A stretch of DNA of 63,995 bases, filler included, from Stramenopiles sp. TOSAG23-6 (GCA_900128565.1; 5 parts of 5 records of this genome joined end to end with filler, not necessarily neighbours in it), one strand, 5' to 3'; counted from the first letter of the whole stretch, positions 12,240 to 56,782 are shown. Numbers and translations are program-made. The notes: generated by a model not told the origin, from the sequence alone.

Positions 12240-13253
12240 TTACACAGTCATNGTCGANTCAACATATCGACAAAGCATTTCGTTCAGAGGACCCACGGGT
12301 AGAGAGCCTGCCATTCCATAAATAGGCGCGTTACCCGAGGCTCCTTCTTCCCAATCTTTAATAGTTAAAGGCTTCGCTTCGCCCTCTTTAATTAAAGCAT
12401 TAAAGCAATTCCGTAAATCNGACTCAAATTTCTGAATCACACCATCNTCAGTATGTAGCATTGTGATACATAAATGAACAGATGCAGGTGATTGTAAATT
12501 GTTAAGACTCCAACCTAGTTTACTCATTTTATCAGAAAGAACAAAAACATTTACTTTTACACCACTACGTTCATCAACGACGGAACCAAACGATATCACC
12601 ATAGCTACTGGATTTCCGAGAACTTCAAGACCTGAAATGGAATCAATAGTTTTCTTTACTTCAGCTGCAGCTTCCATAATTTTCTCAGTTGCTCTCATAT
12701 ATCCTTCCTCACCCATACGAACCATAGCGGCCCATGTAGATGCCAAGAGTGCTCCCGGGCGAGATCCTGCAATTGTAGCAGTGGCATAGAGACCACCTGT
12801 CCATTTTGGATATGTAAAGTATTGATAGCGACGCATAGATTCATTTCGATATAATACAACTGATGTTCCTTTGCAGCTATAACCATATTTATGAGTATCC
12901 ACTGACATAGCAGTTACACCAGGTAAACTGAAGTCGAAATCTGGAATAGAACATCCAAGTTTTTTTGCAAATGGAAGGATAAAGTACTGTGAAAAATATA
13001 TTTTTTTTTACGAAAATTTTTTTGTTAGGTACGGAATTTCACACAAAAAAATTCATGGTACAAAAAATTCAATTGTAAAAACTTACAATCCCCCTAAGCA
13101 ACAATCTACATGGAGGCCAACATTATATTTGACTGCAAGACTGGAAAGTTTATCTATAGGATCTATAGTACCTTGAGCAAAGCTTGGTGCGGAACCAACT
13201 AACATAATAGTATTCGATGTAATAAAACTTTCTACATCTGATCCACGAAGTTT
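12240..13253 (-). CDS. SGPL1: Sphingosine-1-phosphate lyase (PLP-dependent), 5'-truncated by gap
   Basis: [59 protein letters not shown]. Confidence 0.92.
12982..13086 (-). other. Family intron, GT..TT (105 nt)
   Basis: GGA TT|GTAAGT...CACAGTACTT|T ATC; restores [13 protein letters not shown]; the CAG 5 nt upstream is out of frame. Confidence 0.9.
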
Positions 13254-13307
13254 ATGTATTTTGGAAAAATATTTCAAAAAAAATCTAAAAAATTTTGTTA
13301 GGTACAA
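13254..13307 (-). other. Family intron 3' half (..AT), truncated by gap
   Basis: TTGTACCTAAC...TTTCCAAAATACAT|AAA CTT. Confidence 0.8.
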
Positions 13308-13407
13308 NNNNNNNNNNNNNNNNNNNNNNNNNNNNNNNNNNNNNNNNNNNNTTAATTAATTAANNNNNNNNNNNNNNNNNNNNNNNNNNNNNNNNNNNNN
13401 NNNNNNN
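13308..13407. other. Artificial contig linker / assembly gap
   Basis: 100 nt: N-run, TTAATTAATTAA (stops in all frames), N-run. Confidence 0.97.
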
Positions 13408-13408
13408 C

Positions 13409-16400
13409 CTTGGAATTAAATCTGATTTAACAATACAAAATACGTCACCTCTTCATATGATTCGATGGCATCGTGTAATTGTGGATGAATCACATGCAAT
13501 TAAAAATGTCGGTAATAAAATGTCCGAGGCATGTTGTAAATTAGAAAGTGATCGTCGTTGGTGTGTAACTGGTACTCCTTTCAATACTTCAACGAGTGAC
13601 CTTGTAGGACAATTAAAGTTTTTAAAAGTACATGGATTGGATGATCATCGTTTATGGGAACAAAGAGTTGAAAAGCCATGGGCGTCTTATAAATCTCGTG
13701 CTTCTCATAATGGTGGTATTGTCCCTCCTGGAGCCTTACTTTCTGTTTTAAAAAATACAATGGTACGACATGAAATGAAGCAAAAGTGGGGCCTGAAAAA
13801 TGTTCGGCAATTATTAACACTTCCACCAAAAATTGAAAGTTGTCGTGTGATTGAATGGGATGCGAATACTTTAGAGAAATATACTTCTTTACAAAAAGAT
13901 GCATTTACAAAATTCAAAAAAATTAGAGATCAAGGTCCAAATGAAATTTCACGAAATACTTTTAAATTGTTGACTTTACTTCGATTGTTGAGACAATATT
14001 GTAGTTCAGGTAGTCTTGCACCACCAACAGCATCTTCGACATCATCGGCAACACCTGTAACTAATGCAGCTCTTGAAAAACATCGAAGTAAAGAGTTAGT
14101 TTTAGATGAATTAGATAAATGTCCTATTTGTCATGATGATCAGACACTTCCTGCTGCACCAACAACATGCAAGCATTCATTTTGTTATGATTGTATTGCA
14201 GGATTATGTAATTCTTTCGAGGGTAAAGAAATTTCATGTCCGAAATGTCATGTCAAAATGAAAGGAATTAATCATATTCGACCAGTACGACTTACTCCTG
14301 CAGCAGAAAAGAAAATAAAAGATGCTAATGATGCTAAAGTTGCCGCGAACAAACTCAATGTTGAGGATATGCTGAAACTACCAAAGATAAAGGCATTAAT
14401 TGAGGAACTAAAAATATTACGAGCAGCTGACTCTACTTCCAAAGTACTTATATTTAGTCAGTTTAAACATACACTAGAACACCTTAAACTCGCTCTGTCG
14501 GCATCTGGTTTTCAATATAGAACTCTCACCGGAGATATGACTTTGAAAAAACGAGCCAAAGCTCTGTCAGAATTCCAAAATGATCCACCAACAACTGTCT
14601 TCCTGTTGTCTATGAGAGCTGGTGCTGTAGGTATCAATCTAACTCAAGCAAATCATGTTTTTCTAATGGAACCGTGCATGAATCAAGCATTGGAAGATCA
14701 AGCAATAGGTCGTGTTCATCGAATCGGACAAAAACGAAATGTGAAAATTCGAAGATTTGTCATTTCTAAATCAATAGAGTCACGAATTCGTGCAATGGCA
14801 ATTGCCAAAGTTGCAAAAGCCACAAAACATTCAAGTAACAAGTCAAAGAATTCTCCTGAAATTGCCGAGGAAGACATTTGGAGAAGTAAACTCAAAGTTG
14901 GCAATCACGTAGATGCTCAAGAAAAAGGCGGGAAATGGTTGGAAGGTCGAGTCGTCAGTATAGTGGACAATAAATGCAAGATTCGTTTCCGAGGTTGGAA
15001 AGTGGGTGAAAATAAAGATACTTATGATGAAACCTTTGATCTTTCTAAACATATCGATTGTGATAAAATACAAAAAAAATATACCGTTGTCAAAAATTGG
15101 CGTAAATATATGAAGAATGGTGACTATGTAGAGTGTTATGACTCGGAGGATAAAAAATGGTATTGTCGAAGATTACGTAGTAGTCCATGTATGTTTAATT
15201 TTTTTTCAAATTTAATTTTTTTTTCGTACTAAATTTTGTACCTAACAATTTTTTAGATTTTTTTTGAAATATTTTTCCAAAATACATCAGATAACTCTGT
15301 TTATCTTTTTCTTGGAGGTAAAAATGGTGCTTCGTATGGTCGTATAACTTCTTCATGCGATTCCGATAGTATCCAACGTTTGGGTGTTAATCTTGATTTA
15401 GAAGAAGTAGAAGAAGGTAGGTTGAAGAATATTGCAGAAAGATTTATGGAAAAGGTAGAAAGAATGACAGACCGCGAAGCTTCAGCTAGAAGAAAATCTT
15501 CAGCGAGTCGTTTGTCTGTTGGATCAAAGTTTGCTGGTAGTGTTGTTTCAGATAAGCAAATGTTACGCCAAGAAGAATTTAATGGGTTATTTGATCCCGA
15601 ATCAAGTTTTACACTACGCAATGTTGTAAGTGCTTCTTCAAAAGATAATATTTCAGTAAAAAAACAGACATTTGTTTCAGTTAAAGAAGCGCCTAAAGAA
15701 TTACCGAAAAACGAAAATGTTCTTCAAAATAATGCTAGTCAAACATTGGAAAACCAAGATACTAAAATGCCAAAGAAAATTAATGTAAGTGGTAAGTTAA
15801 AATCATCTGATAATGAAAATGTAATATTGTGTGAATCATTAACAATTAAGTGTCCGGCGGATCTAAATGAAAATCGTTATTTACGTGTCGTTACATCAAA
15901 TAGTATTGTTATGGTGACTCCTGTGCCAAAGGAAATCAAAGCGGGTGAAACATTTTGTATTGATGGACCACCGGGAAGTAATAAAGATGATATTCATATA
16001 ACTAATTTTGAAATGAAGGAAAAAATGGATATTTGTTTGAATGCAGACCCAGAAATACGAAATATTATAAAAATACCCGTTGCTAATACCGCGAATGATA
16101 ATACTCATACAAAGAAAAGTACTATTATAAAGATACCAGTTGCCAACATCTCATCTAAAAACAAAAGCGAATCTGTACAGGAAAACATCTCATCTAAAAA
16201 CAAAAGCGAATCCGTACAGGAAAACATCTCATCTAAAAACAAAAGCGAATCTGTACAGGAAACATTTTGTGTATGTAAAACGACCAACGGCAATGGTTTC
16301 TTCGTTGGATGTGAAGGCTGTGATGGTTGGTATCATCCAAAGTGTATTGGTCTTAGTGAGGATCAATGCTCAAACTTGAGTGATACGTGGCGTTGTCCTT

Positions 16401-16906: not shown

Positions 16907-17042
16907 TCTATTTATACTTTTTTATTTTTATTGGTATTTAATAATTATGTTGAATGTACATATTATCTTTAGAATAGATATAATAAATATATATTTTATT
17001 TTGTACCTTGCAAACTTGCAAACTATTGCATTTTGTATCTAC

Positions 17043-18966: not shown

Positions 18967-19070
18967 GTGTAATAAACTAGAAAAGAAAAAAATATTCATT
19001 ACTTTTATATATCATCAGAGTTGGGTTTTGTCATCAAGATATTAAAATTATTGATTACTTTTATATATCA

Positions 19071-21354
19071 TCAGAGTTGGGTTTTGTCGTCAAGATATTT
19101 TTCGTCTTTCTTGTTATTATTCAAATCAATGCTCATTACACTTTCATCATCATTTACTGGATCGCAATGTTCAGGCATGTTTGTACACAATAACAATAAT
19201 ACGGCAACAAATTGCTCTGCTGCAAGCACGAAATATCCTTCTCGAGCTCCACCAAACCAATAACCAGCTAAAGCAAACGTCAATGGACCAATAACTCCAG
19301 ATACTCGACCAAGTAAAGAAACGATGCCAAAGAAAAGTACAGCCTCTGAAGGAGGAACCATTAATTCTAGGACTGACTTTGATAAAACAATCATACTTGT
19401 AGATACTATACCAAGAAATATTTGCAATAGTAAATATCCAATTGTTTGAAAACTGAGTGAGTTTTGCTCATTTGATATGATTATACATATAAGCGCACAG
19501 ATGAATGCTAGAATATTAAAAAAGATAAAGATAAATTTTGTCGTCATCTCTCCTTGTGTCCATTTAGATGGAGCTAAATTTCGAAACATTTTATGTACTG
19601 CAAGTTGTCTGGACATCATTTTACCTTTTGAATCTATAATTTGTGTTTCAACAGTAGATTGTGATTTTGGCGAAGATGTATCTATTACAATTCGTACTTT
19701 TTCGAAACGCTCAATGTTAGTATTAGGTGGAGCTGTACAGACGCCAATATCACCATCCTCATCATCTCTTTCAAACATATCAGAAGATTTTTGATGAGAA
19801 TCTAGATTTGAAGACATTTCACCAGAGTTTTGCATGGAAACATTATTATTATCATCATTAATATTAAATGGGGTACCATTTTCACTGAACATTGAAGTTA
19901 TTGGGTTTCCTACATGGATTTCTTCTATGCAACTATCATCATTAGCATCTAATTCTGCATCTATTTTTCTAGGTACCATCCTCGGCCAACGCCAGTTTGG
20001 TGCGGCAATTATGGAAATGATAGTAATAAAACAAGATAATTTGTTAATGAGAGCATACCAGATACATGTAGTTTCGGAGAAACCAATGTTTGCTCGAGCA
20101 AATACAATGACATTATGGCTCATTGTTCCTATCACATCTCCATATATAAACATTGCAATCAAGACAAAGGCAAGATCTCTATCTTTACACACGCGGCGTA
20201 ATGCCCAAAAACAAGAGCGTTTGTTCGCGTGCTTTGTCCTTGGTGTCCACGGAGATGAACTATTTCCCGTTAAATCTGAAATACTAATGTCAGACGTGTT
20301 AGATGCGGTCCTTTTATGTAATGTAGGCGTTTTCACTGTGTTTTTTTCATCCTCAAGATTTTCAACTCTCGATTCATTTCCGTTTCCTTCAGTTAAACTA
20401 CTTTTATCAACCATGGTTTCTATCTGATTAATATCGTTTACAGAAGCGGTACCTTTGTTCTTGAATTCTTGAGAAGAAAAGTCATCATCTAAATGAATTG
20501 ATGTTTCATCATCAAATGAATAATGATTTTGTGCAATTCCACCGTTGCGTGACTCACCTTCAAGGATATGCTCATCAAACTTTTGGAGAGAATACCACAG
20601 AGGTATTTGTGATACAATCCAAATAAGTCCACTCAATACTGCTGCAGTGTACATCAAAATGTGAAGAGTAACACCAAACAGTATTAAAAAAGCAAAGAAA
20701 AACAGAAAAAGCACAGAGCCCATATTACCTGTAGCTGAATTCAAAACGCAATTTTGATTAAACGGCGAACCTTCCGTAATAATGTAAAGAATACTGTTAT
20801 TAAAATTTGAGGCTATACAATATAGGAGTAATACGAGAGCTAACCACGTACACATATATTCAGAAACATATTTTAAATTCGAAATTAGTTACGTACAAAA
20901 TTTCGTACGAAAAAAATAATTTGAAATTCATGATGAAAACGTACAGACTATAAAGATTATGTTTCTCGAGAGTACCAGGATCTAAAAGAAGTGGGAGAAC
21001 ACATGAAACGATCCCAACGGTTGTCGAAAACAACATTAGAACATAACGCCGAACACCGAAAAAGTCGGCAGGGTACGACAAGAGTATTGTTAGCGTAATA
21101 CCACCAAAGTATGCTCCTGCAGAAATTGCCGACCAAGCAGCTACTGTGTTTTCATTGCCTGGATAAACTTTCGAAAATTGATGGGAAAAGAATAGTGGCA
21201 AAAGAGACCCAAATAATAATGTGTACCAAATATAAAATCCAAAATCAGTAAAAGCCCATTGTATTTCTAATGAGTTAAAATGTGATAGTGTATACCACGT
21301 TTTTACAGACTTTGATACATTCATTGGTGCTGCCCATGATAGACTATTACCCAT
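19071..21354 (-). CDS. MFS-fold transporter (Atg22/UMF1-like) (2 exons)
   Basis: WAFTDFG, LSYPADFFGVRR, ELMVPPSEAVLFFGIVSLLGRVSGVIGP; many TM helices. Confidence 0.75.
20854..20944 (-). other. Family intron, GT..AT (91 nt)
   Basis: AGT CT|GTACGT...GTACGTAAC...GAATATAT|G TGT; joins two ORFs in frame. Confidence 0.8.
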
Positions 21355-24083: not shown

Positions 24084-25283
24084 TCAACAAATCCATGAAC
24101 TTGTTACCTTGAGATAGTTATGTTCTGAATTTCTATTTTTTGATACATACTGATATCCCTTCAACATCCCTTCATTAGTACCAACACAAACTTGATTATC
24201 ATTAATATGAGTCATTGAGGATATTGAACCATTTGCCACTATGGCGTCTTCACAAACACCAGTCATAAGATTCCAACAGCGGATTGTTCCGTCTGTTGAT
24301 CCAGATAATCCATAGGCGATAGATTCTTGTATAGCATTTTTAGGTGAAAATATACAACTTGTAACATTTTGTGTATGCCCTTCTAGTGTAAATATTTGCT
24401 TATTTGTTCGCAAATCCCAAAGTCTACATTCACAACCTTTGTTGTTGAATCTACTGTAAAAAATATTTCAAAAATTCGAAATTTGTTAGGTACAAAATTT
24501 TTAATGAAAAGAAAAAACTAAATTTCAAATGAATGATGAAAACGAACATCCTTTACTGCCAGTAAAAACATAATGACCATCAGAAGATACCGTTACAGAT
24601 GTTGGAATATATAAATATCCAGTAAACGTTTGTGATGCACGTGTTTTTATATTGCTTCCACTTGAGAGTATTCTTGAGTCCCAGAGACGCATTGTTAAAT
24701 CTTCACTAGTTTGTACAAACAAATCACTTTTCGGAATCCACGAAATATCAGTGACTATATTACGAGATAGTGTAGTAGAAGCGACTGGACTTTTTGGATC
24801 ATTCAAATCCCATAGGCATATTTTTGCATCTCGTCCACCGGATAAAAGTTTACATTCAGAATCATCTAATGATATACAGCTAACTGAATATTTGTGGCCA
24901 CAAAATTCTGTAGTAAAAGCATTGGTGACTGAAGTAGTAGTTTCGACGCTTTCGTTTGCAGTAGTTATCTTTGCATTCCACGCTTTTACAGTAGAATCCC
25001 GGGAACATGTATAGAAAATGTCACGTTGAATTCCATGGACTACTTGATTAATACCAGCACTATGACCTCCCCATGTTCCTTTTATGCTATTTGTGTGAAT
25101 ATCACGTAACCTGATTAAATTGTCCTCAGTTGCAACAAAAATTTGATTTTTTCTATGTGGACCTGCAGGACATATTGAATATATAGAATTTCCAGAATCT
25201 TCCTCTACGCTTGATTCTACTGTTGAGTCTTTATAGCATTCCCCGCGTTTTCGGGCTTTTTTTGAAGAAAAATGGGTGCCCAT
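24084..25283 (-). CDS. WD40-repeat protein, WDR31-like (2 exons)
   Basis: WD repeats; SRNIVT, QTSEDLTMRLWD, spliced GSKGFNNKGCECRLWDLR resemble WDR31; MG start. Confidence 0.8.
24449..24547 (-). other. Family intron, GT..AT (99 nt)
   Basis: GGA T|GTTCGT...TACAGTAGAT|TC AAC; both nearby AGs are out of frame. Confidence 0.88.
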
Positions 25284-26324: not shown

Positions 26325-26390
26325 CGGAAAATAAATTTGCTATTCTTAGAATTTTGTGGTTGACGAATTTTTATATTTCTTAGTTTGTTG

Positions 26391-39977: not shown

Positions 39978-40058
39978 ATGTATTTTGGAAAAATATTTCA
40001 AAAAAAATCTAAAAAAAATTGATAGGTACAAAATTTACTATAAAAAAAAAATTCGATT
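39978..40058 (-). other. Family intron 3' part (..AT), truncated by gap
   Basis: TTTTGTACCTATC...TTTCCAAAATACAT|AT GAT. Confidence 0.8.
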
Positions 40059-40762: not shown

Positions 40763-43176
40763 TTACTTGGATTTTCCATTAGAAAAATTTTCATACCATT
40801 CAATATCCTGAGCTGAAATTCCTGCATTCATTTCTTTCGCTGTTTTTTCAAAATGACGCATTAAAACTTTTTCTGCTTTAATATTTTCTCTGAGGGCAGA
40901 AATCGTAGCTTCTTTACAGATGCTTTTTATCTCTGCTCCAGTGAGTTTTTTATCAATACAAATTTGAGCAATTTGTTTTAAATCAACATCTTCACCAATT
41001 GGAATATTTTTAGTATGAATTTGAAGAATGGCTAGTGATCCAGAATAATCTGGTGGTGGAACATAAATGACTTGATCGAAACGACCAGGGCGCATTAGAG
41101 CTGCATCGATCATTTCAGGTCGATTTGTTGCACCCACAATGTATAGTGAAAAATATTTCAAAAATTTGAAATTCATTAGGTACAAAATTTCGTAAGAAAA
41201 AAAAGTAAATTCGAAATTAGTAATGAAAACGTACATGAGTAAACCTTCAGTTTGTTCAATGCCATCCATTTCATTTAATAATGTTGAAAGAATTCTCATT
41301 TGAACACGGCCATCACCACCACTTTGACTTCGTTTTCCAACTAAAGCTTCATGTAGGTGAAAAAATATTTAAAAAAAAAATCATTAGGTACGGAATTTTC
41401 TATTTAAAAAAAAATCAGAGTAAAAAATTAATTATGAAAACATACAAGTTCATCAAGAAACAAAATTGCTGGTAAAGCCAATCGTGCACGTTTAAATACT
41501 CGACGTATACAAGCTTCCGATTCACCAACAAAAGCTGAATATATTTGAGCACCAGAAAGCGAAAGAAATGTATTGTGAAAAAATATTTAAAAAAAATCGT
41601 TAGGTACAAAATTTACTATAAAACAAAATTAGATAAAACATTGAAATGAAAACGTACAAGTAGCATTTGATGCAGACGCTGCAGCACGAACTAATGTAGT
41701 TTTGCAGCATCCCGGAGGACCATATAACAGTACACCTCTGGAGGGTCTAAGTCCCATATAAGAAAAAACATCAGAGTGTTGTAGTGGCCATTCAACAGCT
41801 TGTTTCAATTGTAATTTTACTTTAGATAGTCCACCAACGTCATGTATTTTGGAAAAATATTTCAAAAAACATTTGTTAGGTACGAAATTGCGTACGAAAA
41901 AAAAATTCGGATGTGAAAAAAATAAAACGAACATCCCACTGTACCTTGGATGGTTGTATAGCATGACCTCGAAGAAGTGATGCACCTACATTTTCTGCAG
42001 CATCGTGAAGATCTTTAGGAGATGCAAGTATAACATTTGATTTTTGTATACTATGAGAATCAATATTGTTTATAGTACTATTTGTACTATGAATTGCATC
42101 TGCTGCCCGGGAAACACAAATCATTGCTAATTCCCTAGCCAGTGCAAGTAAATCTGCATGAACATATCCAATACAATGTTTTGCGGCAAATTCGGCTATT
42201 TTTCCCTTTTTAGCTATTTTATTCTTTGTATTTTTGTTGTATGTAGCAGCAATACATTCTTTTAATTTATCTGTCTTATTCTGGTTAGGGTTGGGGTTAG
42301 AGAACATTCCCTCTTCAACGGGAATATGTCTACAATAATGTTCTAAAAGAATAGATCGTTCATGTATTGTAAAAAAAAAAATGGTTTACATTGTTTTGTT
42401 AGGTACAAAAGTTGGTACGAAAAAAAAAATAAAATTCGAAATGAATGAAGAAACCATACATCAGGGCCAGGAGGGTCAAGTGCAATTTCTATATCTAATC
42501 GACCAGGTCTTCTTAAAGCAGAATCAACATCGGATACATTATTTGTGGAGGCTACAACAATAACAATACCAAAACTTGTATTTTTTGTGTTGAATATATC
42601 AGAATTTTTTGATGTAGATTGATAGGTTTCAATACCATCAAGTAATGTTAATAAAGTCGCGACTCTTCGTGCAGCAGCCGCATCAGTACGATCCCGATTG
42701 GGGCATAAAATATCAATGCTTTCAATGTGTATGATAGAAATTGCGCCTGGCATTTCAGCATGATGTTTAGCTGATTTAAATACACCACACAAAGCTTCAG
42801 TGGCATCACCAGCACCAGTTTCAACACTTATATCCGCACCATCTACGTGGAATAATTCTACATAAACACCTTTGGTATTTCTACAACAAGACAGAGCTGA
42901 TTGAATTATCGATGATTTTCCAGTGCCTGGTGGACCATGTAACAGGATACCTTTTGTTGGAAATAATTTTAAATCTTTCATCAAATCATTATGAAATATT
43001 GGTAGAAGAATATTGTCTACGAGCTTTTCACATGCGATTGCGTGTGTACCAACCAATGATGACATAGTTTCTTCAACTGTTGGTATATTATTATTATCAT
43101 TATTATTATTATTATTATTATCAGTAGTAGTAGTATCAGTAGTAATGTTGCTATTATTCAATAGAGTATCAGTATC

Positions 43177-46014: not shown

Positions 46015-48211
46015 ATGAGATTTGTGTCTGTAATTTTGCGTTATATATATGCCACAATTGCTCTTCAATCTCGTGTTCTTTCAATTTTCTGGAATGATCC
46101 AAAGTTTTTTGCACCCTGCTTAGTGATTTGGGTTGCAACATTTGGCGGCTCTTTGCACTCATCTGTGACACCTTACTTCTACAACAAGGTGGGTGCAACT
46201 GATACTGATATTGGTTATTTAACATCTGTAGGAGAGTTTCCAGGAATATTTGTTGTTCCATTTTATGGCTGGTTGATGGATTTTCATGGTGCATACCTTG
46301 CATGTTTATTGTCAACTATATTATGTGCTGTGGGTTGTGCTATACGGGGTTTTGCTTTCAATATTAATAGTTTATACATTGGTGTTGCTGTCATTGGGTT
46401 AGGTTCCAGTGCTTTATGGACAATAACTATGAGCTTTGTAGCTAGTCAAAGTTCCCGAGAGGATAGATCTGCGATTATATCAGCGTATGTTGTTCAGATT
46501 ACTGCTCTGAGATTAATTGGTCGTGGAGTATATCCTTTATGGGATTTTTGTTTAATACAAGTTTGTGGAGAACACAACATTCTTTTACGATATCGTATAT
46601 CTATGAGTGTTTGCACATTTTTTTGTTTTTTTGGGTTTTTTGTTTTGACATATTGGGGTAAAGCCTTCAGAAGTGTTGGACCTTTATATGGAACTAATGA
46701 AGACGTTGAATCGTCGTCAACCTGTGAAGTTATAAAAAATACAGTAGGGATTTTGAACTATTCTCCAACCTCTTTCAAAACAAAAGAAGCAAATGAAAAT
46801 CATAATGCAATAGATTCATCAAGTTTAGTTGTATCACCATCCTTGAAAAACACGAAATCCAAATTAAGAAAGAAGGATATAATTGAAACTGAAAAAGGAA
46901 CAAACTCTTCAACATTTCAGTTTCAGCTTGTACCATTTCTTATTATATGTATTGCAATGGTAATTCAAGCAATAGCCACTGCAATTATAAAAGTTGTTTG
47001 GCCTCTTTGGCTAAGAGATGCATTTGGTTGGAGTGCAACAGAATTTGCATGGTTGTTATTGGCGAGCTCAATACTTTCCACTGTGAGTATTGCAGTGTTT
47101 ATGTTTTCAGCATGAATTTCGAATGTATTTATTTTTCGTAAGAAATTTTGTACCTAACAAATTTTAATTTGTGAAATATTTTTTCACAATACATATCCAG
47201 CAGTTGAACTTGTTCATGGTAAGTACAATACTTTATTATTAGTTTTATTGTTATCCGCGTTTTCCGGATTGCTAGCATTTAGTGTTTTACATTATAATGT
47301 AAACCCCAACCCTCTTAGAAATAAAAATGCCTCTTTTATGGATGGTAACTTAAGACATCTTTTACAAACCCCTAACCCTAACCCTGATGCAAATGATCAA
47401 CTAGAAAAAATAGAAAAAACACAAATACAAATAGTAGGAACTCTAAACAAATATTGTATAGTTCTTCATATATTATTTATTATTATATTTAAATCAACAA
47501 TAGCAACACTCGAACCTGCATTAAAAGCAATGGGTTCACTGCTAATGCCGCGTGCTATACAAGGAAGAACTTTTGGTTCCCTAAATGCATGTATGTTTTA
47601 TTTTTTTAATTTCGAATTTCTTTTTTTTTTCGTACGAAATTTTGTACCTAACGATTTTTTTTTAAATATTTTTCCAAAATACATCAAGTACTGGCCGGTT
47701 TTGGATTTCATTTGCTTTTTTTAGCGGAAGTATGATGGGTCGTATACTTGCAGGAATTACTAGAACATTTACAGTAAGCATTCTTAGTACTCGTATAAAT
47801 TTTGGCTTACGCTGGCCCAATCGTTGGCCTCTGGGGCTACTAAATATCGCTCAGGCTGCTGCGTATCTTTATTGTACAACATTGACCGCATCAGCAATGA
47901 GGTCTGCAGATAAAAATGCAACACCTGCTCCTTTGTGGTTATCATTTCTAATGATTTTATTACTTTCTACTGCTCATGGACATATTGTTACTCTTGGGTT
48001 TGTAAGATTACCTTCAGCAGTAGAGTTGGATATGGTACCGAAGAACAGATCCATTGGAGATGGAGCGTTTGGCATACCTGAAAAAAACAAAGATGAAAGG
48101 ATACAAGTTGCTTGTAGATTTGCTGGAATTTGCAATCAAGCTGGAGCTCTCATGGGATCCGCCTTAAATCTTATTTTACTCACAAGTGGGGTTTTAATAA
48201 AGAAAAAATGA
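46015..48211 (+). CDS. MFS transporter (3 exons; last exon possibly from another transporter family)
   Basis: PFYGWLMDFHG, VASQSSREDRS, WLRDAFGWS, LMPRAIQGRTFG; exons join in frame through 47099-47194 and 47591-47684. Confidence 0.75.
47099..47194 (+). other. Family intron, apparent TT..AT (96 nt); donor ambiguous
   Basis: GTG T|TTATGT...TTGTACCTAAC...CACAATACAT|AT CCA by family alignment and frame. Confidence 0.6.
47591..47684 (+). other. Family intron, GT..AT (94 nt, near-consensus copy)
   Basis: GCA T|GTATGT...TTTCGTACGAAATTTTGTACCTAAC...CCAAAATACAT|CA AGT. Confidence 0.85.
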
Positions 48212-49895: not shown

Positions 49896-51246
49896 ATGTA
49901 TTTAAATAGATATACTTTCTTATTGAGGAAACATGTGATTACCCATAGACTTTCTACCACGACTCTTTCTAATTTGGGGCGAACTCTGTCGCAAGCATCA
50001 GATACTTCTATACGTAAATCCTCCACAACAAGCCGTTTGACCAAGTTAAGAGCTCAGTTAGCTAGCGAAGATAATGAAAACGATCTTTTACATTTCGCTG
50101 GAGTATCCAATACTGATCCCCCGAAAATTCCATATGCACCTACACTTTCATATTCTAGCGGGGAAAAAAATAATAGAGATGCAAATACCCCAACTGGTAT
50201 AAATAAAGGACCTCGTCGAAAAAAAAGAGAACGGTTACCCCCTTGGTTGAAGGCACCATTACCAGCTGGTGAAAATTATCACCATCTTAAGGACACTGTT
50301 CGCGATTTAAAACTTGCCACTGTGTGTGAAGAAGCACAGTGTCCAAATATAGGAGAATGTTGGGGAGGAGAAGAAGGAACGGCAACTGCAACAATTATGT
50401 TAATGGGTGATACTTGTACTCGTGGTTGTTCATTTTGTGCTGTAAAAACGAGTCGTGCACCACCACCACTTGATCCAGCTGAACCTGCACATGTGGGGAA
50501 AGCGGTTGCTGATTGGGGTTTAGATTACGTGGTCTTAACTTCTGTCGATCGGGATGATTTGGAGGATCAAGGTGCAGCTCACGTTGCTGAGTGTGTTCGT
50601 GCTCTGAAAGAAAAAACAAAGAACCGTGTTTTAGTTGAAGTACTGACAGGTGATTTCCAAGGCCACGAGGATAAAATAGAAATGGTTGCAAAATCAGGTC
50701 TAGATGTATTTGCACATAATGTATGTTATTTCATCATCAATTTCAAATTCACTTTTTTTTTTTTTTTTTTGTAAAAATGTTTTGTACCTAACGAATTTCA
50801 AACTGTACACATATTTGTTTATAATACATGTTGAAACCGTGAAAAGCAGACAGGCCCGTGTTAGAGATCGGCGAGCAGGTTATGAGCAGTCGTTGTCTGT
50901 GCTAAAGCATGCCAAAAAGACGGTGCCGTCCTTAATTACCAAGACTTCTATTATGCTTGGCGTTGGAGAGAAGGAGGAAGAAATTTACGAATGTCTCAAA
51001 GATCTTCGTGAAAATGAAGTCGACGTTGTCACTTTTGGGCAATATTTGCGTCCTTCCAGACGACATATGCCTGTTGATAGATATGTAACTCCTGAGGAAT
51101 TTGATAAATGGCGTGTTGAAGCTGAGAGGCTTGGTTTTAAATATTGTGCGAGTGGTCCTCTTGTTCGGTCAAGTTATAAGGCAGGTGAATTTTTCCTCGC
51201 AAACCTTGCTCGAGAGGCAAAAGCCTCTGCAAAAGTTATTCATTAG
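49896..51246 (+). CDS. LIAS: Lipoyl synthase, mitochondrial (2 exons)
   Basis: [32 protein letters not shown], spliced [27 protein letters not shown]. Confidence 0.97.
50721..50829 (+). other. Family intron, GT..AT (109 nt)
   Basis: CAT AAT|GTATGT...GTACCTAAC...ATAATACAT|GTT GAA; restores the conserved HNVETV; no AG inside the intron. Confidence 0.95.
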
Positions 51247-51622: not shown

Positions 51623-51971
51623 ATTCGACGGTTTACAAAGGATCAACTGTATAGTTATAGTATTAGAATGCTGTTTACGAATATTCTAGATACAAGAAAG
51701 ACATTGGTGTCACCGTGTATTTCCAAAGGAGAGTCAACAACCCACTTTTTTGTTATTTTAATGTGTGTCTTTCGCGCTCCTGCAGGCCAACCCTATTATA
51801 AAAAGTTAGGTACAAAATTTGGTAGGAAATATTTTTAAAATGTAATATTATTTTGCGCCAGGCCAGTAATAGCGGTTAAAAAAACTGATGATCCAAAAGA
51901 AACGTTTCTACAGTACCTTTTACTTTACAGTCACAACGTATCCGTATATTTCAAAAGAATCAAATAGCAGT

Positions 51972-52937
51972 ATGTTGATTCATTTGTTCACGTATGTCTT
52001 CTTGTTTATATGGTCACAATCACTTGTTTCAGCATACCAAGAATTAACTTCGGATAATTTCAAACCTTTCTTAAAAGAAAATCCCTTTACGTTGGTTGTC
52101 TTCTTCGCTCCTTGGTCTGAATCTTGGGAAAAGTTCGAGGAAGACTTTGAAACCCTTGACGAAGAAATGGCAGAGAGATTTCCAAAAGTTAATTTAGGTC
52201 TTTGCAATATTGATGAACACTTCACTCTTTCTTCTTACAGTGGAAAAAATACCCTATCTGTAAAGTTTTTCTGGGGTGAAGCCTATGATTCAAAACCAGT
52301 ATCTTACCTTGATGTTCTAAATGCTGAAAGCATTTTTGATTTCATAGAAGCCGTTTTGGATTCAACAGTAGAAGTGACTGTTGATGATATGGATGACGTT
52401 GTCGAAGAATTTGTGAAAATTACATTTGGACAGGAATCAAATGACAGAAGTAATAAGCAAATCGAACTGCTCAAACAGGTACAAAAACGAGTCGCCGAAA
52501 CGGATAATGAAACTGAAAAAAAGCTTCATTATTTGTACAAAGTTCACGTTAAAATAATGACAGGTTTAATGCAAAATTCACAAACTCTTGCTGAAAGAAT
52601 TCATTCACTAAACATGGAACTTAATCAATTTGGAGAATTCATGAAAATTCAAGATTACAAAAAAAAGAAAACGGAATCGGTCTTATGTACGTGTTCATCA
52701 TGAATTTCGAATTTATTTTATTTTTCATACGAAATGTTGTACCTAACAAATTTCGAATTTGACATATTTTTTCAAAATACATATCAACAGTATGCTGACA
52801 AACTTCTACCTCCAAAATATCGTTCAAATGCTAAAAATGTCTTATTTCCTGATTCTACACCCAATGAGAGAGGAGCTAAAAAAGCTAATTTTGAAGTTCA
52901 GTCAAATGGTGGAGCGAAACGTATTCTGTTAGAATAA
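51972..52937 (+). CDS. Non-catalytic thioredoxin/PDI-like ER protein with helical C-terminus (2 exons)
   Basis: Signal peptide; ELTSDNF..LVVFFAPWSES (WCxxC lost). Confidence 0.7.
52687..52782 (+). other. Family intron, GT..AT (96 nt)
   Basis: TTA T|GTACGT...TTCAAAATACAT|AT CAA; in frame. Confidence 0.82.
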
Positions 52938-53266: not shown

Positions 53267-53366
53267 NNNNNNNNNNNNNNNNNNNNNNNNNNNNNNNNNN
53301 NNNNNNNNNNTTAATTAATTAANNNNNNNNNNNNNNNNNNNNNNNNNNNNNNNNNNNNNNNNNNNN
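53267..53366. other. Artificial contig linker / assembly gap
   Basis: N-TTAATTAATTAA-N, 100 nt. Confidence 0.97.
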
Positions 53367-53402
53367 TAACGATTTTTTTTGAAATATTTTTTCACAATAC
53401 AT
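53367..53402 (+). other. Family intron 3' end (..AT), truncated by gap
   Basis: TAAC...GAAATATTTTTTCACAATACAT. Confidence 0.8.
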
Positions 53403-53530: not shown

Positions 53531-53776
53531 TGAATTTTTTAATGAATGATACTGGTAATGAAATTTTTTCAGATTTGATTTCTAGCTAGATTTTTGATTT
53601 CTATAATTATAAAAGATTTTTTTTACGATTTTTTTTTACGATTTGGGACCCGGGTAACGTTTAACTGAAAAATATGCCGTTTCATTTTTTTAGTTTTTGT
53701 AGAGGTTTTTTTTATTTTTGTAAAAAGATACTTCTACTACTAGTCCTATAAAGCGAAATCATCAACTCGCATCTAG

Positions 53777-54962
53777 ATGGAGGCGAATATTTACACATTT
53801 TTAGTGCAATACTATGATGCGTATGCAAAGGCAAATAAGCCATATACTTTAATGTATCATGAAATGAAAAATGGCCAGCCTAACCAGTTGGAGTTGGTCA
53901 ATCCAAAGACGAAACAAAAGTTTATTGCGAAACATAGAACTCCGCATAAGCTTCGTCATTTCATTTTGGGTAATAACGTCACTATAAAAGGGCGAACATT
54001 TAATGTAGAGAGCTATAATGATAAGCAAACCAAACAGGTATTTTCTGTATTGCATGAAAAGACTCTCGTTTGTGTGTCTCCTCAAGCATTCAAAAACCTA
54101 GGTCTCTTATTGGACCTAATCGAAGGATCAGGTTTGTTATTAGGTCAGTTAAAGACTTGTCGTCTGAGTATAGAAACAGTTAAATACTTGATTAATATTG
54201 CTGGATTTGATTCTATTGATGCAGAATGCCTAAGAGGTCCAGGTGTAATGTGTGCTTTTGAAGTCGTTGGAGAGAAAGCGAGACAGATGTGGTTAGAGAT
54301 TAGCGCTCGTGCTGGAGTAGGTCCAATATTTGCCACTTCAAAAACGACTACTGATGCAACAGTCAACTTTTTCTTTGGTAATAATCAGCGGCAAGATATT
54401 GCTCAATCAAGCGCAGAAGTCATGCAACGTGTCAATGACGCTTGTGCTTTGCTTCTTATCAAGCCTCATGCTGTATCTCAGGGATATCACGGGAAAATCA
54501 TTGCTCAGGTGTCAGCTGAAAATTGTTTTGAAATATGCGCTTGCGATAAGGTAATGTTTTCTAAATCTGATGCTAAAGAGTTTTTAGAGTGTTATTCGTT
54601 TTTGCATAATATATCTGAGCATGTAGATCAATTGTCTTCTTCTTCGTGTATTGCATGTATGTTTTATTTTTTTTTTGTATGATTTTTTTTTCATACGAAA
54701 TTTTGTACCTAACAATTTTTTTAAGATTTTTTTTGAAATATTTTTCCAAAATACATTGTGTGTACGTGGAAAAGAAAATGTCCAAGCCCAATTACGTGCC
54801 TTTGCTGGACCATTTGATGTTATCGTTGGTAGAGAAATTAGTCCTCAATCTCTTAGAGCCCAGTTTGGTTATAATAGAGTAAGAAATGCTGTGCATGTGA
54901 CAGATTTAAAAGAAGATGGCGTGTTGGAATGCAATTTTGTATTTAATACTTTGAGGCTTTGA
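53777..54962 (+). CDS. NME7: Nucleoside diphosphate kinase 7 (DM10 + two NDK-like domains) (2 exons)
   Basis: DM10 FLVQYYD..ILGNNVTIKGR; LLIKPHAV; LRAFAGPFD..PQSLRAQFG..RNAVHVTDL.EDGVLE. Confidence 0.88.
54657..54756 (+). other. Family intron, GT..AT (100 nt)
   Basis: GCA T|GTATGT...CCAAAATACAT|TG TGT; restores SCIALCVRG. Confidence 0.9.
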
Positions 54963-55128
54963 GGCTTTGAGGTTTTGAGGTTTTGAGGCTTTGAATTGTG
55001 ATGTAATCTATCATGTAGCTGTACGCTTGACACTCATCATAAAAACCAAGATTTTAAAAACCAAGATTTTAAAAACCGAGATGAGTGTATGAGAAAGACG
55101 TTATAATCTTTAGATATATATATTGACT

Positions 55129-56782
55129 TTATTCGATTTTATTTAAAATAGATTTTGCATTTTTAATAATTTGTTCAATATTGTTATTCATTACCATTTG
55201 TTTCCTTGATACAATCTTCATTTCCTCTAATAACCCATTACTTAACATTTCCTTGTGGGTTTCTTGATTTTCTAAATATTCTTCTTTACATCCAAATAAC
55301 GCTTTCATTAGATTATTTATAAGTTTTGATGTTGCCGAGACTCTCCCCTCTGGTGTCTTATCATCAGGTTTACATTTTCTTAATACTCTTAATTTATTTA
55401 TCGTATCGTGAAATTTATGATTTATTTCTCTGAGATTTGCCTTTGCTAATACATCACCCTTGCTTGCAAGCTTTGAATATTTACGATATAACCACATTAT
55501 TTGTAAACAATTTGATGCCGTATGACGAAGCTCTCTCTTATAATTTTTTCTCATGACAATATTTATTAGATAGTTTTCACCCTCTGAAGTGTTACTTGCT
55601 TCTACAAAAACGGCAACCATCATTGTACTTATTACTAAACCACCCAAAACACCACCCAGTATAATCGTGATTTTTCCTATGGGAGACACGGCGACAGTAT
55701 TCCCATACCCTACAGTTGGCATCGTTATTAAAACTAAATAAATACCATCATGAAATGATGAAATTTTAGATGTCGGTATTTCTCTCTCGAGAATACACAG
55801 AGCTGCCCCTGTTGCGACAACAATTGTAAATAATAATGGTAGAAGAAGAAGAAGTATTTTGGGAAAATATTTCAAAAACAAAATCGTTAGGTACAAAATT
55901 TCGTACGAAAACCAAAAAAAAAATAAACTCGAATTTGAAAAAAAAATAAAACATACAATCGGGTTATACTTGAGCAACATTTTAAAGTTGAAAGAAATAG
56001 ACAATGAATCAATTGCGTTCATATTTGCAATGAAATGAATTTGCTGTCCATAAAATCCTGAGTGATTTCGCATTACCCTCAACATGGTATAGATTCTAAA
56101 TAGAACAACTATGTTCTGTGAAAAAATATTATTTTTTTTTTTTTTTTAACGTTAGGTACAATTTTTTTTTTCTTAAAAAAATGTAAATTGTACACTCAAT
56201 TTGGAAAACATACATATTAAGCACATTAACATGCATTGGATAACCATTTAAATTTGTATAAAAGTCCATACCTACTGGAATATGTAGTAGTGCAATGAAA
56301 CATTCTAAAATCCAATTTTTGGTTTCGGTAGAGTCAAATTTTGTCAATAATCCTGTATTTCGTGGAAGGATATTTCTCAAGGCTTTGATTCGTATTATTG
56401 TTTTATACCTAAGTGTGTGCAGAATAATAATAATAATGCTATCAATTGATGTTGCCCATTTTAATATTCGTGCTTTGTATGTATCATGATACAACTTTCC
56501 TTGGTGTTTCAACGCCCAGATACGCATTTCATCGTCAAGAAGAAAGCACAAAAGAATAACAAAAATACTCATTAATGCTGTTATATCTTCGTAATGTTTA
56601 CGACTTGTGAAGAGACGGTTTAATTCTCCCAATTCAGCTAAAGAAACAACTGTCTTATTATCGAAACTACATTCTAAAAGTTGTTTTTTATATACGGCAT
56701 ATAGATCATCCTCGTGTTTTTTTCTTTTTCCTGAAATGTCTTTGCTTTTCATTCGTACAGCATTTTTAGCACTTGAATTCAT
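55129..56782 (-). CDS. SK/KCNN-like calcium-activated potassium channel (3 exons)
   Basis: LECFIALLHIP, S4 LFRIYTMLRVM, pore LITMPTVGYG, CaM-binding-like ASNCLQIMWLYRK. Confidence 0.85.
55852..55956 (-). other. Family intron, GT..TT (105 nt, stop-free 3n)
   Basis: CCG ATT|GTATGT...CCCAAAATACTT|CTT. Confidence 0.8.
56111..56213 (-). other. Family intron, GT..AT (103 nt)
   Basis: AAT AT|GTATGT...CACAGAACAT|A GTT; the CAG 5 nt upstream is out of frame. Confidence 0.88.

What the first reader, a model, noticed from the sequence alone, without database searches (positions are those of the whole stretch)
12982..56213. Nearby AG dinucleotides are skipped in favour of AT/TT
Seen: four introns have an AG within 2-5 nt of the frame-required end, and using it would frameshift a conserved domain. 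These are SPL CACAG-TACTT| (12982), WDR31-like TACAG-TAG-AT| (24449, two AGs), HECT ACAT|AG (29073) and SK channel CACAG-AACAT| (56111). Inference: the 3' site is set by position relative to the T-tract/CACA motif or the branch point, not by scanning to the first AG.
Basis: partly seen in the sequence, partly recalled or inferred. Interest (0 to 1): 0.78.

Follow-up and report, generated by a model that had tools for sequence, protein, structure and literature searches.

The report
Mobile intron family ending in AT
Nearly every intron in this stretch of a marine protist genome is a copy of one roughly 95-base repeated element that starts with the usual GT but ends in AT or TT instead of the near-universal AG, so the published gene models, which forced AG ends, are wrong.

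Summary
All four introns sit at the stated coordinates, and using the nearby AG would shift the frame.

They are not four oddities. They belong to one repeated intron family: 30 complete introns, 4 copies cut by contig or window ends, and 1 fragment in 64 kb.
- Consensus: GTAYGTTTT ... GTACCTAAC ... ATATTTTTYCAMAATAC-AT|.
- Last two bases: AT in 23, TT in 5, AG in 2.
- "CACAG" is an A-to-G variant inside the element, 5 nt before its end.

The proposed boundaries join long reading frames clearly in 25 of 30 introns, with none contradicted. Seven non-AG junctions match homologues to the residue, in the SPL, lipoyl synthase, dynamin (2), AAA ATPase and SK-like channel (2) genes.

The last two intron bases equal the two exon bases before the donor in 22 of 29 introns (0 of 100,000 shuffles reach this). 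This looks like a 2-bp target-site duplication.

The cut stays with the element's terminal TAC+2. It is not at a fixed distance from the CTAAC motif, which lies 31-45 nt away.

The RNA test gave no junction-spanning contigs, so splicing is inferred from protein homology. I found no report of this in print.

The parts
12982..13086 (-). Finding intron 1 (SPL gene): GTAAGT...CACAGTACTT|, 105 nt; TT before the donor and TT at the end; unused AG 5 nt before the end
   Evidence: junction exact against 6 solved SPL chains
24449..24547 (-). Finding intron 2 (WD40 gene): GTTCGT...ACAGTAGAT|, 99 nt; AT/AT; unused AGs 5 and 2 nt before the end; an in-frame AG 12 nt downstream is not excluded
28981..29073 (+). 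Finding intron 3 (SPRY/NHL/HECT gene): GTACGT...CACAATACAT|AG, 93 nt; AT/AT; the exon starts with AG
56111..56213 (-). Finding intron 4 (SK-like channel): GTATGT...CACAGAACAT|, 103 nt; AT/AT; unused AG 5 nt before the end
   Evidence: gap-free against 8 of 9 homologues
55852..55956 (-). Family intron, SK-like gene: GTATGT...AAATACTT|; TT/TT
   Evidence: gap-free against 9 of 9 homologues
50721..50829 (+). Family intron, lipoyl synthase: GTATGT...TAATACAT|; AT/AT
   Evidence...DVFAHN matches residue 237 and VETV starts at 238 of human LIAS chains
8527..8627 (-). Family intron, dynamin: begins ATAAGT (no GT in any register), ends ...CAATACAT|; AT/AT
   Evidence: NC-I-ILAVT contiguous with 3t34, 3l43 and 1jwy and with 8 homologues
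9168..9354 (-). Composite intron made of two element copies, dynamin: GTTTGT...CAACACTT|; TT/TT; followed by a 26-nt micro-exon (9142-9167)
   Evidence: [12 protein letters not shown] gap-free in 7 of 8 homologues
8964..9141 (-). Composite family intron, dynamin: GTATGT...CATGATAG|; one of two AG-ending members; AG/AG
7374..7469 (-). Family intron, dynamin: GTGTGT...CCATACTT|; GC before the donor, TT at the end (no match)
9558..9653 (-). Family intron: GTACGT...CAATGTAG|; second AG-ending member; AG/AG
11860..11949 (+). Family intron: GTACAT...CAATATTT|; TT/TT
13254..13307 (-). 3' part of a family copy in the SPL gene, cut off by a contig end; ends ...AAATACAT|
15189..15287 (+). Family intron, SNF2/RING/PHD gene: GTATGT...AAATACAT|; AT/AT; unused AG 31 nt before the end
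20854..20944 (-). Family intron, ATG22-like gene: GTACGT...GAATATAT|; CT before the donor, AT at the end
30024..30122 (+). Family intron: GTATGT...CAATGTAT|; GT before the donor, AT at the end; frame support weak
30187..30289 (+).
31103..31212 (+). Diverged family intron: GTATGT...CTCAGAANACAT|; AT/AT; CAG 7 nt before the end
32008..32103 (+). Family intron: GTATGT...CAATATAT|; CA before the donor
32526..32633 (+). Family intron: GTACGT...CNATACAT|; AT/AT
39978..40058 (-). Family copy cut off by a contig end; ends ...AAATACAT|
41139..41234 (-). Family intron, Afg2-like AAA ATPase gene: GTACGT...CTATACAT|; AT/AT
41351..41445 (-). Family intron, AAA ATPase gene: GTATGT...ACCTACAT|; TT before the donor, AT at the end; settles the register as GT..AT
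   Evidence: the GT..AT register gives ILFLDEL|EALVGKR; the TT..AC register gives DEH; homologues have DEI in 10 of 10 printed domain alignments
41568..41657 (-). Family intron, AAA ATPase gene: GTACGT...CAATACAT|; TT before the donor; frame test ambiguous because the exons are short
41842..41932 (-). Family intron: GTTCGT...AAATACAT|; AT/AT
42362..42459 (-). Family intron: GTATGG...CAATACAT|; AT/AT
47099..47194 (+). Family intron, MFS transporter gene: element position 1-2 is TT (TTATGT); a GT lies 2 and 4 nt upstream; register unresolved
47591..47684 (+). Family intron: GTATGT...AAATACAT|; AT/AT
52687..52782 (+). Family intron: GTACGT...AAATACAT|; AT/AT; frame support weak
53367..53402 (+). 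3' part of a family copy at a contig start; ends ...CAATACAT|
54657..54756 (+). Family intron, NDK7-like gene: GTATGT...AAATACAT|; AT/AT; unused AG 31 nt before the end
59448..59545 (+). Family intron, Nup84/107-like gene: GTACGT...CAATGCAT|; AT/AT
62260..62349 (-). Family intron, closest to the consensus: GTATGT...AAATACAT|; AT/AT
63943..63995 (-). Family copy cut off by the window end; ends ...TAATACCT|
51805..51829 (-). 25-nt fragment holding the GTACCTAAC core, apparently between genes; not an intron

Best explanation
These are spliceosomal introns of a single mobile, introner-type element family.

Each copy appears to bring its own splicing signals:
- a 5' splice site, GTAYGT;
- a near-invariant branch-site-like motif, GTACCTAAC;
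- a T-tract;
- a terminal ...AATAC.

The intron that is removed is the element plus two further bases. Those two bases are a copy of the two exon bases just before the donor, which looks like a 2-bp target-site duplication, mostly AT. The intron therefore ends in AT (sometimes TT, rarely AG). The 3' cut is anchored to the element's own end (consensus TACAT|). It is not set by an AG or by a measured distance. A CAG created by mutation 5 nt upstream is simply ignored.

Shown here:
- the family exists;
- the intron boundaries, by reading frame and by protein homology;
- the non-AG ends;
- the repeat of the two bases;
- the lack of a fixed distance to the CTAAC motif.

Inferred, not shown:
- that removal is by the spliceosome at the RNA level;
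- that GTACCTAAC is the branch site;
- that the two repeated bases are a target-site duplication from DNA transposition;
- that this lineage's 3' splice-site recognition has been relaxed or retuned, for example through U2AF or second-step factors, as reported for Fritillaria.
For: Family:
- GTACCTAAC with at most 1 mismatch occurs 35 times, against 7.0 expected; 0 of 100 shuffles reach this.
- A profile search finds 35 places. A second profile adds one more diverged intron.
- Mean pairwise identity of 27 copies is 0.69 (range 0.50-0.96), and the similarity runs through the whole intron.
- All copies lie in the sense orientation of their host reading frames.
- 3 of the 8 contig ends at the four linkers fall inside copies.

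Boundaries:
- The frame class of GT...TAC+2 is clearly best in 25 of 30 introns, weakly best in 3, ambiguous in 2 and contradicted in 0.
- Residue-exact junctions: SPL, lipoyl synthase, dynamin at 8627, 9354 and 9141, SK-like channel at two introns, and AAA ATPase Walker B.

Ends:
- Of 29 introns, 22 end in AT, 5 in TT and 2 in AG. The 30th ends in AT.
- 22 of 28 non-AG introns have no in-frame AG within 15 nt.

Two-base repeat:
- 22 of 29 introns match (shuffle mean 13.3; 0 of 100,000 shuffles reach 22).
- Among the 7 non-AT ends, 6 match: TT/TT four times and AG/AG twice.

Selection pattern: the donor, GTACCTAAC, ATATTTTT and TACAT are the most conserved columns, and the interior is looser.

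Distance from CTAAC to the end is 31-45 nt. Copies with indels keep the cut right after TAC-NN.

Precedents in print:
- introners that carry the 5' site and take the 3' site from the duplication (PMC9860276, passages);
- non-canonical transposon-derived introns in Fritillaria and Amoebophrya (PMC11282704 and PMC7789003, passages);
- divergent U2AF that recognises non-AG ends (PMC13326754, abstract).
Against: - No RNA evidence. In the one stretch I could lay (13408-26706, 3 family introns), no metatranscriptome contig bridged an intron, spliced or unspliced.
- Terminal inverted repeats are weak by eye (4 + 8 matching bases). No autonomous element or transposase was seen, and no whole genome is held.
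- 7 of 29 introns do not show the two-base repeat. Because AT dominates both sides, the case for a duplication rests mainly on 6 non-AT matches.
- A relative's lipoyl synthase ORF (P0250, 55% identical) also leaves homology right after AHN. That suggests an intron at the same position and fits poorly with a recent insertion there.
- Two members lack GT at element position 1-2: 8627 has ATAAGT and 47099 has TTATGT.
- For 6 of 28 non-AG introns, an in-frame AG within +15 nt cannot be excluded by frame alone. Of these, the SK intron at 56213 is excluded by homology. The finding's WD40 intron is not.
Confidence: 0.66

Rival explanations
1. Ruler model: the spliceosome cuts at a set distance from the branch point or from the T-tract/CACA motif, whatever bases lie there.
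For: In most copies the end lies 5 nt after CA[AC]A[AG] and 10-11 nt after the T-run.
Against: The distance from CTAAC to the end varies from 31 to 45 nt. The constant offset from CACA is shared by descent. Copies with a 1-2 nt indel between the T-tract or CACA and the end keep the frame only if the cut follows the terminal TAC-NN: 41445, and 30187 and 31103.
Confidence: 0.1
2. Register shifted by two: the real intron is NN-GTAYGT...TAC|. This would make it AT-AC in most copies, like rare U2-type AT-AC introns, with the exon keeping the downstream AT.
For: Both registers give the same mRNA in the 22 of 29 introns whose dinucleotides match. Copy 8627 starts ATATAAGT and ends ATAC in this register. 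Copy 47099 gains a GT donor in this register. The A1-C(-1) compatibility rule is recalled from the literature and was not checked here.
Against: At 41445 this register gives DEH in the Walker B motif, where homologues have DE followed by I (10 of 10 printed alignments) and the GT..AT register gives DEL. It would also make the AG/AG members into AG...GT introns. GTAYGT is a classical donor. Only one informative copy could be judged.
Confidence: 0.08
3. Not a DNA transposon. The family spreads at the RNA level by reverse splicing or intron transposition, or old introns were overwritten. On this view the identity of the two bases reflects a splicing requirement or insertion-site preference, not a duplication.
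For: The terminal inverted repeats are weak. Every copy lies in the sense orientation inside a gene. A relative seems to have an intron at the same lipoyl synthase position (P0250). Fungal introners without duplications or inverted repeats are described in PMC9860276 (passages).
Against: Reverse splicing of an excised intron predicts a constant 3' end with no link to the upstream exon. Yet 6 of the 7 non-AT ends copy the exon dinucleotide. The strict sense orientation can equally result from selection against copies that cannot be spliced.
Confidence: 0.14
4. AG is used after all, with compensating donor shifts or small in-frame deletions. The AT/TT ends would then be an artefact of frame-based annotation.
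For: 6 of 28 non-AG introns have an in-frame AG within +15 nt. At the WD40 intron, the AG at +12 gives a more typical WD-repeat loop. The deposited gene model P0121 was built this way.
Against: 7 non-AG junctions are exact to the residue against homologues. 22 of 28 have no in-frame AG within 15 nt. The AG-forced model P0121 translates intron sequence and drops conserved pieces.
Confidence: 0.03

Closest known systems
Introner elements that carry the 5' splice site and take the 3' splice site from the target-site duplication (for example the Chrysochromulina and Micromonas families; PMC9860276 and PMC11282704, passages read)
   Same: Many similar short introns sit in unrelated genes, all in the sense orientation. 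The element supplies the GT donor. The last intron bases repeat the exon bases before the donor. Excision leaves the coding sequence unchanged.
   Different: The repeat here is only 2 bp, against 3-9 bp reported. It is mostly AT, so the resulting 3' end is not AG. Those families are described with canonical AG ends. The inverted repeats here are weak, and no transposase is known.
Non-canonical MITE-derived introns of the tunicate Fritillaria borealis (review PMC11282704, passages; PMC13326754, abstract)
   Same: A majority of introns have non-AG 3' ends (AC or AT) and trace back to transposon insertions with duplications. A TAC next to the junction features in both. The proposed solution is a retuned major spliceosome, with divergent U2AF paralogues.
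   Different: Fritillaria introns mostly also lack GT at the 5' end (AG-AC, AG-AT) and are diverse. Here the donor is a strong GTAYGT in 28 of 30 introns, and one element family accounts for all introns found. The host is a stramenopile protist, not an animal. U2AF could not be examined.
Amoebophrya introners and euglenid nonconventional introns (PMC7789003 and PMC11282704, passages)
   Same: Repeated introns with short direct repeats at the borders and non-canonical ends.
   Different: Those have inverted repeats of 8-20 nt, or defined pairing, that bring the intron ends together, and their borders vary. Here RNAalifold finds 0 conserved pairs in 25 introns, and the borders are uniform.
U12-type (minor) introns, whose 3' dinucleotide is flexible and set by distance from the branch site (recalled, not checked in a paper here)
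   Same: Tolerance of non-AG ends, and a highly conserved branch-site-like motif ending in TAAC.
   Different: The donor is GTAYGT, not RTATCCTT (0 of 30). The motif lies 31-45 nt from the end, not about 10-20 nt.

Membership tests
Introner (transposon-like intron family) | Many introns of shared sequence in unrelated genes of one genome | tested here: met
   30 complete introns, 4 cut copies and 1 fragment in 64 kb. Mean pairwise identity is 0.69, up to 0.96.
Introner (transposon-like intron family) | Target-site duplication: within-intron match of the flanks that does not hold between introns | tested here: met
   2-nt match in 22 of 29; 0 of 100,000 shuffles reach it; 6 of the 7 non-AT ends match. 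The sample is small and AT dominates.
Introner (transposon-like intron family) | Terminal inverted repeats | tested here: inconclusive
   By eye, only GTAT/ATAC plus an internal 8-nt pair (ATTTCAAA / TTTGAAAT) in the consensus. No formal test was run.
Introner (transposon-like intron family) | Lineage-specific intron positions, or presence/absence between strains | tested here: inconclusive
   A near-identical strain (P0241) keeps the lipoyl synthase intron. A 55%-identical relative (P0250) seems to have an intron at the same position. No other positions were compared.
Introner (transposon-like intron family) | Autonomous partner or transposase | not testable with these tools
   No whole genome is held. 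The element's 19-mer gave only 3 chance hits in the metagenome contigs.
Canonical U2-type GT-AG intron | GT (GTRNGT-like) donor | tested here: met
   28 of 30 introns: GTATGT 13, GTACGT 8, other GT donors 7. The exceptions are ATAAGT and TTATGT.
Canonical U2-type GT-AG intron | Branch-site motif and pyrimidine tract upstream of the 3' end | tested here: met
   GTACCTAAC is near-invariant and ATATTTTT is conserved. This is sequence only; the branch point was not mapped.
Canonical U2-type GT-AG intron | AG as the last two bases | tested here: not met
   2 of 30 end in AG, 23 in AT and 5 in TT. 7 non-AG junctions are exact by homology.
U12-type intron | RTATCCTT donor, and a TCCTTAAC branch site close to the 3' end | tested here: not met
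   0 of 30 donors fit. The motif is TACCTAAC and lies 31-45 nt from the end.
Euglenid / Amoebophrya structure-dependent introns | Conserved base pairing that brings the intron ends together | tested here: not met
   RNAalifold on 25 of the 30 introns: 0 predicted pairs.
Fritillaria-type non-canonical introns | Non-GT 5' ends (AG-AC, AG-AT) in most introns | tested here: not met
   The GT donor is kept in 28 of 30.

The most novel reading that the evidence does not exclude
In this marine stramenopile lineage, GT-AT is the standard intron form across the whole genome. Extrapolating the window's density to a genome of tens of megabases gives on the order of 10,000 introns. On this reading the spliceosome has lost the AG requirement and reads a TAC-NN type end signal instead. 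That would imply remodelled 3' splice-site recognition (U2AF1/2, Prp8, Slu7 or Prp18, or snRNA changes) that arose independently of the tunicate and dinoflagellate cases, driven by one introner family.
Probability: 0.45. Interest if true: 0.85.

Novelty: new variant of a known kind. Interest (0 to 1): 0.72.

Why it matters
The AG at the intron's 3' end is one of the most conserved signals in eukaryotic gene expression. Only a few lineages are known to have given it up on a large scale, including Fritillaria, Amoebophrya and the euglenids.

This would be a further, independent case in a free-living marine stramenopile. It is unusually clean: one element family, a normal GT donor, and a uniform AT end. 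That makes it a good natural system for asking how the second step of splicing picks its site, and how a spliceosome co-evolves with an invading intron family.

It also has a practical consequence. A deposited gene model for this locus (P0121) forces GT-AG. As a result it translates intron sequence and deletes conserved protein segments. If the pattern holds genome-wide, the public proteome of this organism, and gene counts and functional inferences drawn from it, are systematically corrupted. They could be repaired by allowing GT-AT/TT introns.

Tried and rejected
RNA test
- The look-up of sequencing runs answered 'busy' 9 times. It then listed 4 seawater metatranscriptome runs.
No contig bridged 15189-15287, 20944-20854 or 24547-24449, spliced or not. 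The only joints listed were repeat-driven chimeras. This says nothing for or against AT use.

Tools that gave nothing or were closed
- No whole genome is held.
- Rfam found no family in the window.
- The element's 19-mer in metagenome contigs gave 3 hits, all chance matches without the element.
- The protein atlas gave only SPL-like clusters and no useful taxonomy.
- Solved structures gave nothing for the two upstream SK exons. The SK junctions were settled with representatives instead.

Attempts that did not settle the question
- I looked for transcript-derived proteins of the same organism. Only an unspliced genomic ORF (P0241) and the mis-modelled P0121 turned up.
- 4 of the 7 introns whose dinucleotides differ (7469, 20944, 30024, 32008) lie in poorly conserved protein regions. 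In 41657 and 47099 both registers encode the same residues. The register could therefore be judged only at 41445.

Considered and rejected
- Programmed DNA elimination of the ciliate IES type. The elements are present in the assembled DNA of nearly every gene and carry full spliceosomal signals.
- Pseudogenes. The frames stay open for hundreds of codons.

Literature
- Three searches and passages of PMC5778133 and of preprint 10.64898/2026.04.17.719054 mention no non-canonical introns in MAST-type stramenopiles.
- Supplements were not available and may hold intron statistics.

Full report
**What the window is**

The 63,995 bases are five contigs of about 13.3 kb each. They are joined by 100-nt linkers (44 N, TTAATTAATTAA, 44 N) at 13308-13407, 26707-26806, 40059-40158 and 53267-53366. 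GC content is about 35%.

Genes are densely packed and have long exons. Pfam identifies the following:
- a DNA ligase, a peroxidase and a dynamin;
- a SNF2/RING/PHD protein and an ATG22-like transporter;
- a WD40 protein and a very large SPRY/NHL/HECT ligase;
- an MFS transporter, lipoyl synthase and an NDK7-like protein;
- an ion-channel domain with a weak calmodulin-binding match (SK-like), and Nup84/107.

Two further genes are identified from solved-structure matches rather than Pfam: a sphingosine-1-phosphate lyase (SPL) and an Afg2-like AAA ATPase.

The best protein matches are to stramenopiles and algae. One database protein, P0121, is labelled by its source 'eukprot:GSMAST32.ASY1.ANO1.1125.1 assembled CDS'. 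It is identical to the window's dynamin exons block by block, so it is a deposited gene model of this very locus. From that label and the hits I read the organism as a MAST-3-type marine stramenopile. This is my inference from a label, not a tool result.

**Checking the observation**

With donors at 13086, 24547, 28981 and 56213 and ends at 12982, 24449, 29073 and 56111, long open frames join. Every AG within 2-5 nt gives a frameshift into stop codons.

Two of the four are exact by homology:
- SPL. The upstream exon aligns to solved SPL structures up to ...CCLGG (residue 280 of 3mad and 5eud). The downstream exon aligns from F-ILPFAKK at residue 281. The same adjacency holds in 4q6r, 3mc6, 8cmx and 5k1r.
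- SK-like channel. The protein spliced at the AT end aligns without a gap from HVNxxN through MRNHSGFYGQQ in 8 of 9 homologues. The next, TT-ending intron aligns gap-free in 9 of 9.

The HECT-gene intron has no in-frame AG within 15 nt.

An AG 12 nt downstream is in frame. It would give a WD-repeat loop 4 residues shorter, which is closer to the usual spacing as I read the alignments. That single end is supported by frame and by analogy with the family only.

**What it really is**

The four introns share sequence with each other and with almost every other intron in the window.
- GTACCTAAC with at most 1 mismatch occurs 35 times, against 7.0 expected.
- A profile built from 12 copies finds 35 places.
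- After the ends were fitted and a second profile was run, these resolve into 30 complete introns, 4 copies cut by contig or window ends, and 1 short fragment. Two of the complete introns are composites of two copies, and these two flank a 26-nt dynamin micro-exon.
- I found no intron outside the family, though I did not build exhaustive gene models.
- The consensus is GTAtGTTTTcaTtaTtaaTTTcaAATttatTTTTTTTTTcgTAcgAAATTTTGTACCTAACaAaTTTattTtTgAAATATTTTTTCAcAATACAT.
- Mean pairwise identity is 0.69, ranging from 0.50 to 0.96.
- The most conserved columns are the donor, GTACCTAAC, ATATTTTT and the terminal TACAT. The interior is looser. This is the pattern expected if the splicing signals are under selection.
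- Every copy lies in the sense orientation of its host frame.
- Three contig ends fall inside copies, as repeats tend to do.
- In two seawater metatranscriptome libraries, hundreds of different contigs matched the stretch I laid (784 and 756), and depth was concentrated in the bins holding two of its three element copies. That fits a very high copy number, but the material may be DNA carried into those libraries.

**Boundaries**

For all 30 introns I asked which length class (mod 3) joins open frames, taking the donor at element position 1 and the end at element TAC+2. That class is clearly best in 25, weakly best in 3 and ambiguous in 2. The two ambiguous cases are short exons of the AAA gene. 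In none is another class clearly better.

Homology fixes these junctions to the residue:
- SPL (TT end).
- Lipoyl synthase (AT end): DVFAHN matches residue 237 and VETV starts at 238 of human LIAS chains.
- Dynamin 8627..8527 (AT end): YIEKKNC matches residue 175, the split-codon I matches 176, and ILAVT starts at 177 of 3t34. The same holds for 3l43 and 1jwy.
- Dynamin 9354..9168 (TT end) and 9141..8964 (AG end): [24 protein letters not shown] is gap-free in 7 of 8 homologues. With all four introns removed, the CDS is one open frame of 937 codons.
- SK-like channel, two introns.
- AAA ATPase 41445..41351: see the register paragraph below.

In contrast, the deposited model P0121 forces GT-AG. 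It reads through intron sequence ([15 protein letters not shown]...) and removes conserved segments.

**The 3' end**

- The last two bases are AT in 22, TT in 5 and AG in 2 of 29 introns. The 30th ends in AT.
- The consensus of the last five bases is T-A-C-A-T, present in 26, 23, 20, 23 and 26 of 27 copies respectively.
- 'CACAG' is simply the element's CACAA or CAAAA with an A-to-G change at position -6. This change occurs in 13086, 24547, 30187 and 56213. Copy 31103 has a CAG 7 nt before its end.
- Other unused AGs lie 31-35 nt before the end in 15189, 54657 and 30187.
- 22 of the 28 non-AG introns have no in-frame AG within 15 nt either way.
- The distance from the A of CTAAC to the end is 31-45 nt in the 26 single-copy introns where it could be measured. 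There is therefore no ruler from that motif.
- Copies with small indels between the T-tract or CACA and the end keep the frame only if the cut follows TAC-NN: 41445 CAC-CTACAT, 30187 CCAAAAGTCAAT, 31103 CTCAGAANACAT. The cut is thus tied to the element's very end.
- RNAalifold finds no conserved pairing in 25 of the 30 introns. A structure-guided mechanism of the euglenid or Amoebophrya kind is not supported.

**The two-base repeat**

The two exon bases before the donor equal the last two intron bases in 22 of 29 introns. The shuffle mean is 13.3, and 0 of 100,000 shuffles reach 22.

Because AT dominates both positions, the informative cases are the non-AT ends. Of these 7, 6 match: TT/TT four times and AG/AG twice. 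The miss is 7469, with GC/TT.

This within-intron, direct (not complementary) match is the signature that PMC9860276 uses for a target-site duplication (passages). On that reading, the element proper is GTAYGT...TAC. It inserts with a 2-bp duplication, preferring AT, and the intron that is removed equals the element plus one copy of the duplication. The identity of the terminal dinucleotide would then be an accident of the target site. It would not be a signal, which would explain why AT, TT and AG all occur.

Against this reading:
- 7 introns do not match.
- The inverted repeats are weak.
- No transposase is known.
- A relative's lipoyl synthase ORF (P0250) breaks off at the same AHN position, which hints at an older intron there.

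**Register**

Where the two dinucleotides are equal, GT...NN and NN-GT...AC give the same mRNA, so sequence alone cannot tell them apart. Among the 7 introns whose dinucleotides differ, only 41445 lies in a conserved motif. The GT..AT register gives ILFLDEL|EALVGKR. The shifted register gives DEH. Solved Afg2, VAT and p97-type chains have DE followed by I at that column in all 10 printed domain alignments. I therefore take GT...AT as the register.

Two members lack GT at element position 1-2. Copy 8627 has ATAAGT and has no GT in any register; its junction is exact by homology. Copy 47099 has TTATGT, with a GT 2 nt upstream. These remain unexplained in detail.

**How it most likely works**

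The donor, the CTAAC motif and the T-tract are those of ordinary major-spliceosome introns. I therefore infer spliceosomal removal, with 3' site choice that tolerates or prefers a non-AG end next to TAC. By analogy with Fritillaria, divergent U2AF paralogues there recognise non-canonical 3' ends (PMC13326754, abstract). A change in 3' site recognition factors is the likeliest enabling step here too, but I could not examine any splicing gene or snRNA.

**RNA evidence**

I have none. The run finder answered only at the tenth try. On 13408-26706 no contig crossed an intron.

**Novelty**

Transposon-derived introns with border repeats and non-canonical ends are known from Fritillaria, Amoebophrya, euglenids and dinoflagellates (PMC11282704 and PMC7789003, passages). 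Introners that borrow their 3' site from the duplication are also known (PMC9860276, passages).

A single family with a canonical GT donor and a uniform AT/TT end that makes up essentially all introns of a stramenopile was not in any paper I found. I ran three searches and read passages of two papers on MAST genomes. Supplements were not visible. I class it as a new variant of a known kind.

**Verdict**

The real finding is larger than the one reported, namely a genome-colonising GT-AT introner family. Confidence is about 0.9 that the non-AG ends are real and about 0.66 for the full explanation. Interest is 0.72.

Noticed in passing
window 13308-13407, 26707-26806, 40059-40158, 53267-53366: The window is a chain of five contigs of about 13.3 kb, in descending size, joined by N44-TTAATTAATTAA-N44 linkers. 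Genes on either side of a linker are not real neighbours. Three contig ends lie inside element copies.
   Followed up: partly
window 6129-9501 (-) and protein P0121: The deposited gene model of the dynamin locus forces GT-AG. It translates intron sequence and drops conserved segments. With the family introns removed, the gene is one clean 937-codon frame.
   Followed up: yes
window 9558-10866 (-): A 414-codon ORF upstream of the dynamin gene joins in frame, through family intron 9653..9558, to the ORF that holds the dynamin start codon at 9501. This is either an N-terminal extension of the dynamin or an upstream gene whose last exon overlaps it.
   Followed up: no
window 9142-9167 (-): A 26-nt micro-exon (VGRGFLPR) of the dynamin GTPase domain lies between two double-length introns, each built from two element copies.
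   Followed up: partly
proteins P0241 and P0250 (lipoyl synthase relatives): P0241 is an unspliced ORF from a near-identical strain whose intron start differs by small indels. P0250 (55% identical, with an N-terminus like the Incisomonas sequence P0274) leaves homology right after AHN. This suggests an intron at the same position in a relative, possibly with a GC-type donor.
   Followed up: partly
window 26410-26700: Metatranscriptome contigs show 'goes back' joints and raised depth here, which suggests a tandem or dispersed repeat next to the contig end.
   Followed up: no
window about 54940-55010 (+): A short tandem repeat of the CTTTGAGG type lies downstream of the NDK7-like gene.
   Followed up: no
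window 15184-15627 and 20512-20955, runs X1, X2, X4: Summed contig depth over two of the three element copies is hundreds to thousands of times that of the exons, because hundreds of distinct contigs carry the element. The family is very abundant in those seawater libraries. Whether this is DNA or unspliced RNA is not known.
   Followed up: partly
window 8527-8627 (-) and 47099-47194 (+): Two family introns lack GT at element position 1-2 (ATAAGT and TTATGT), yet they sit in genes that look intact. The first junction is exact by homology.
   Followed up: partly
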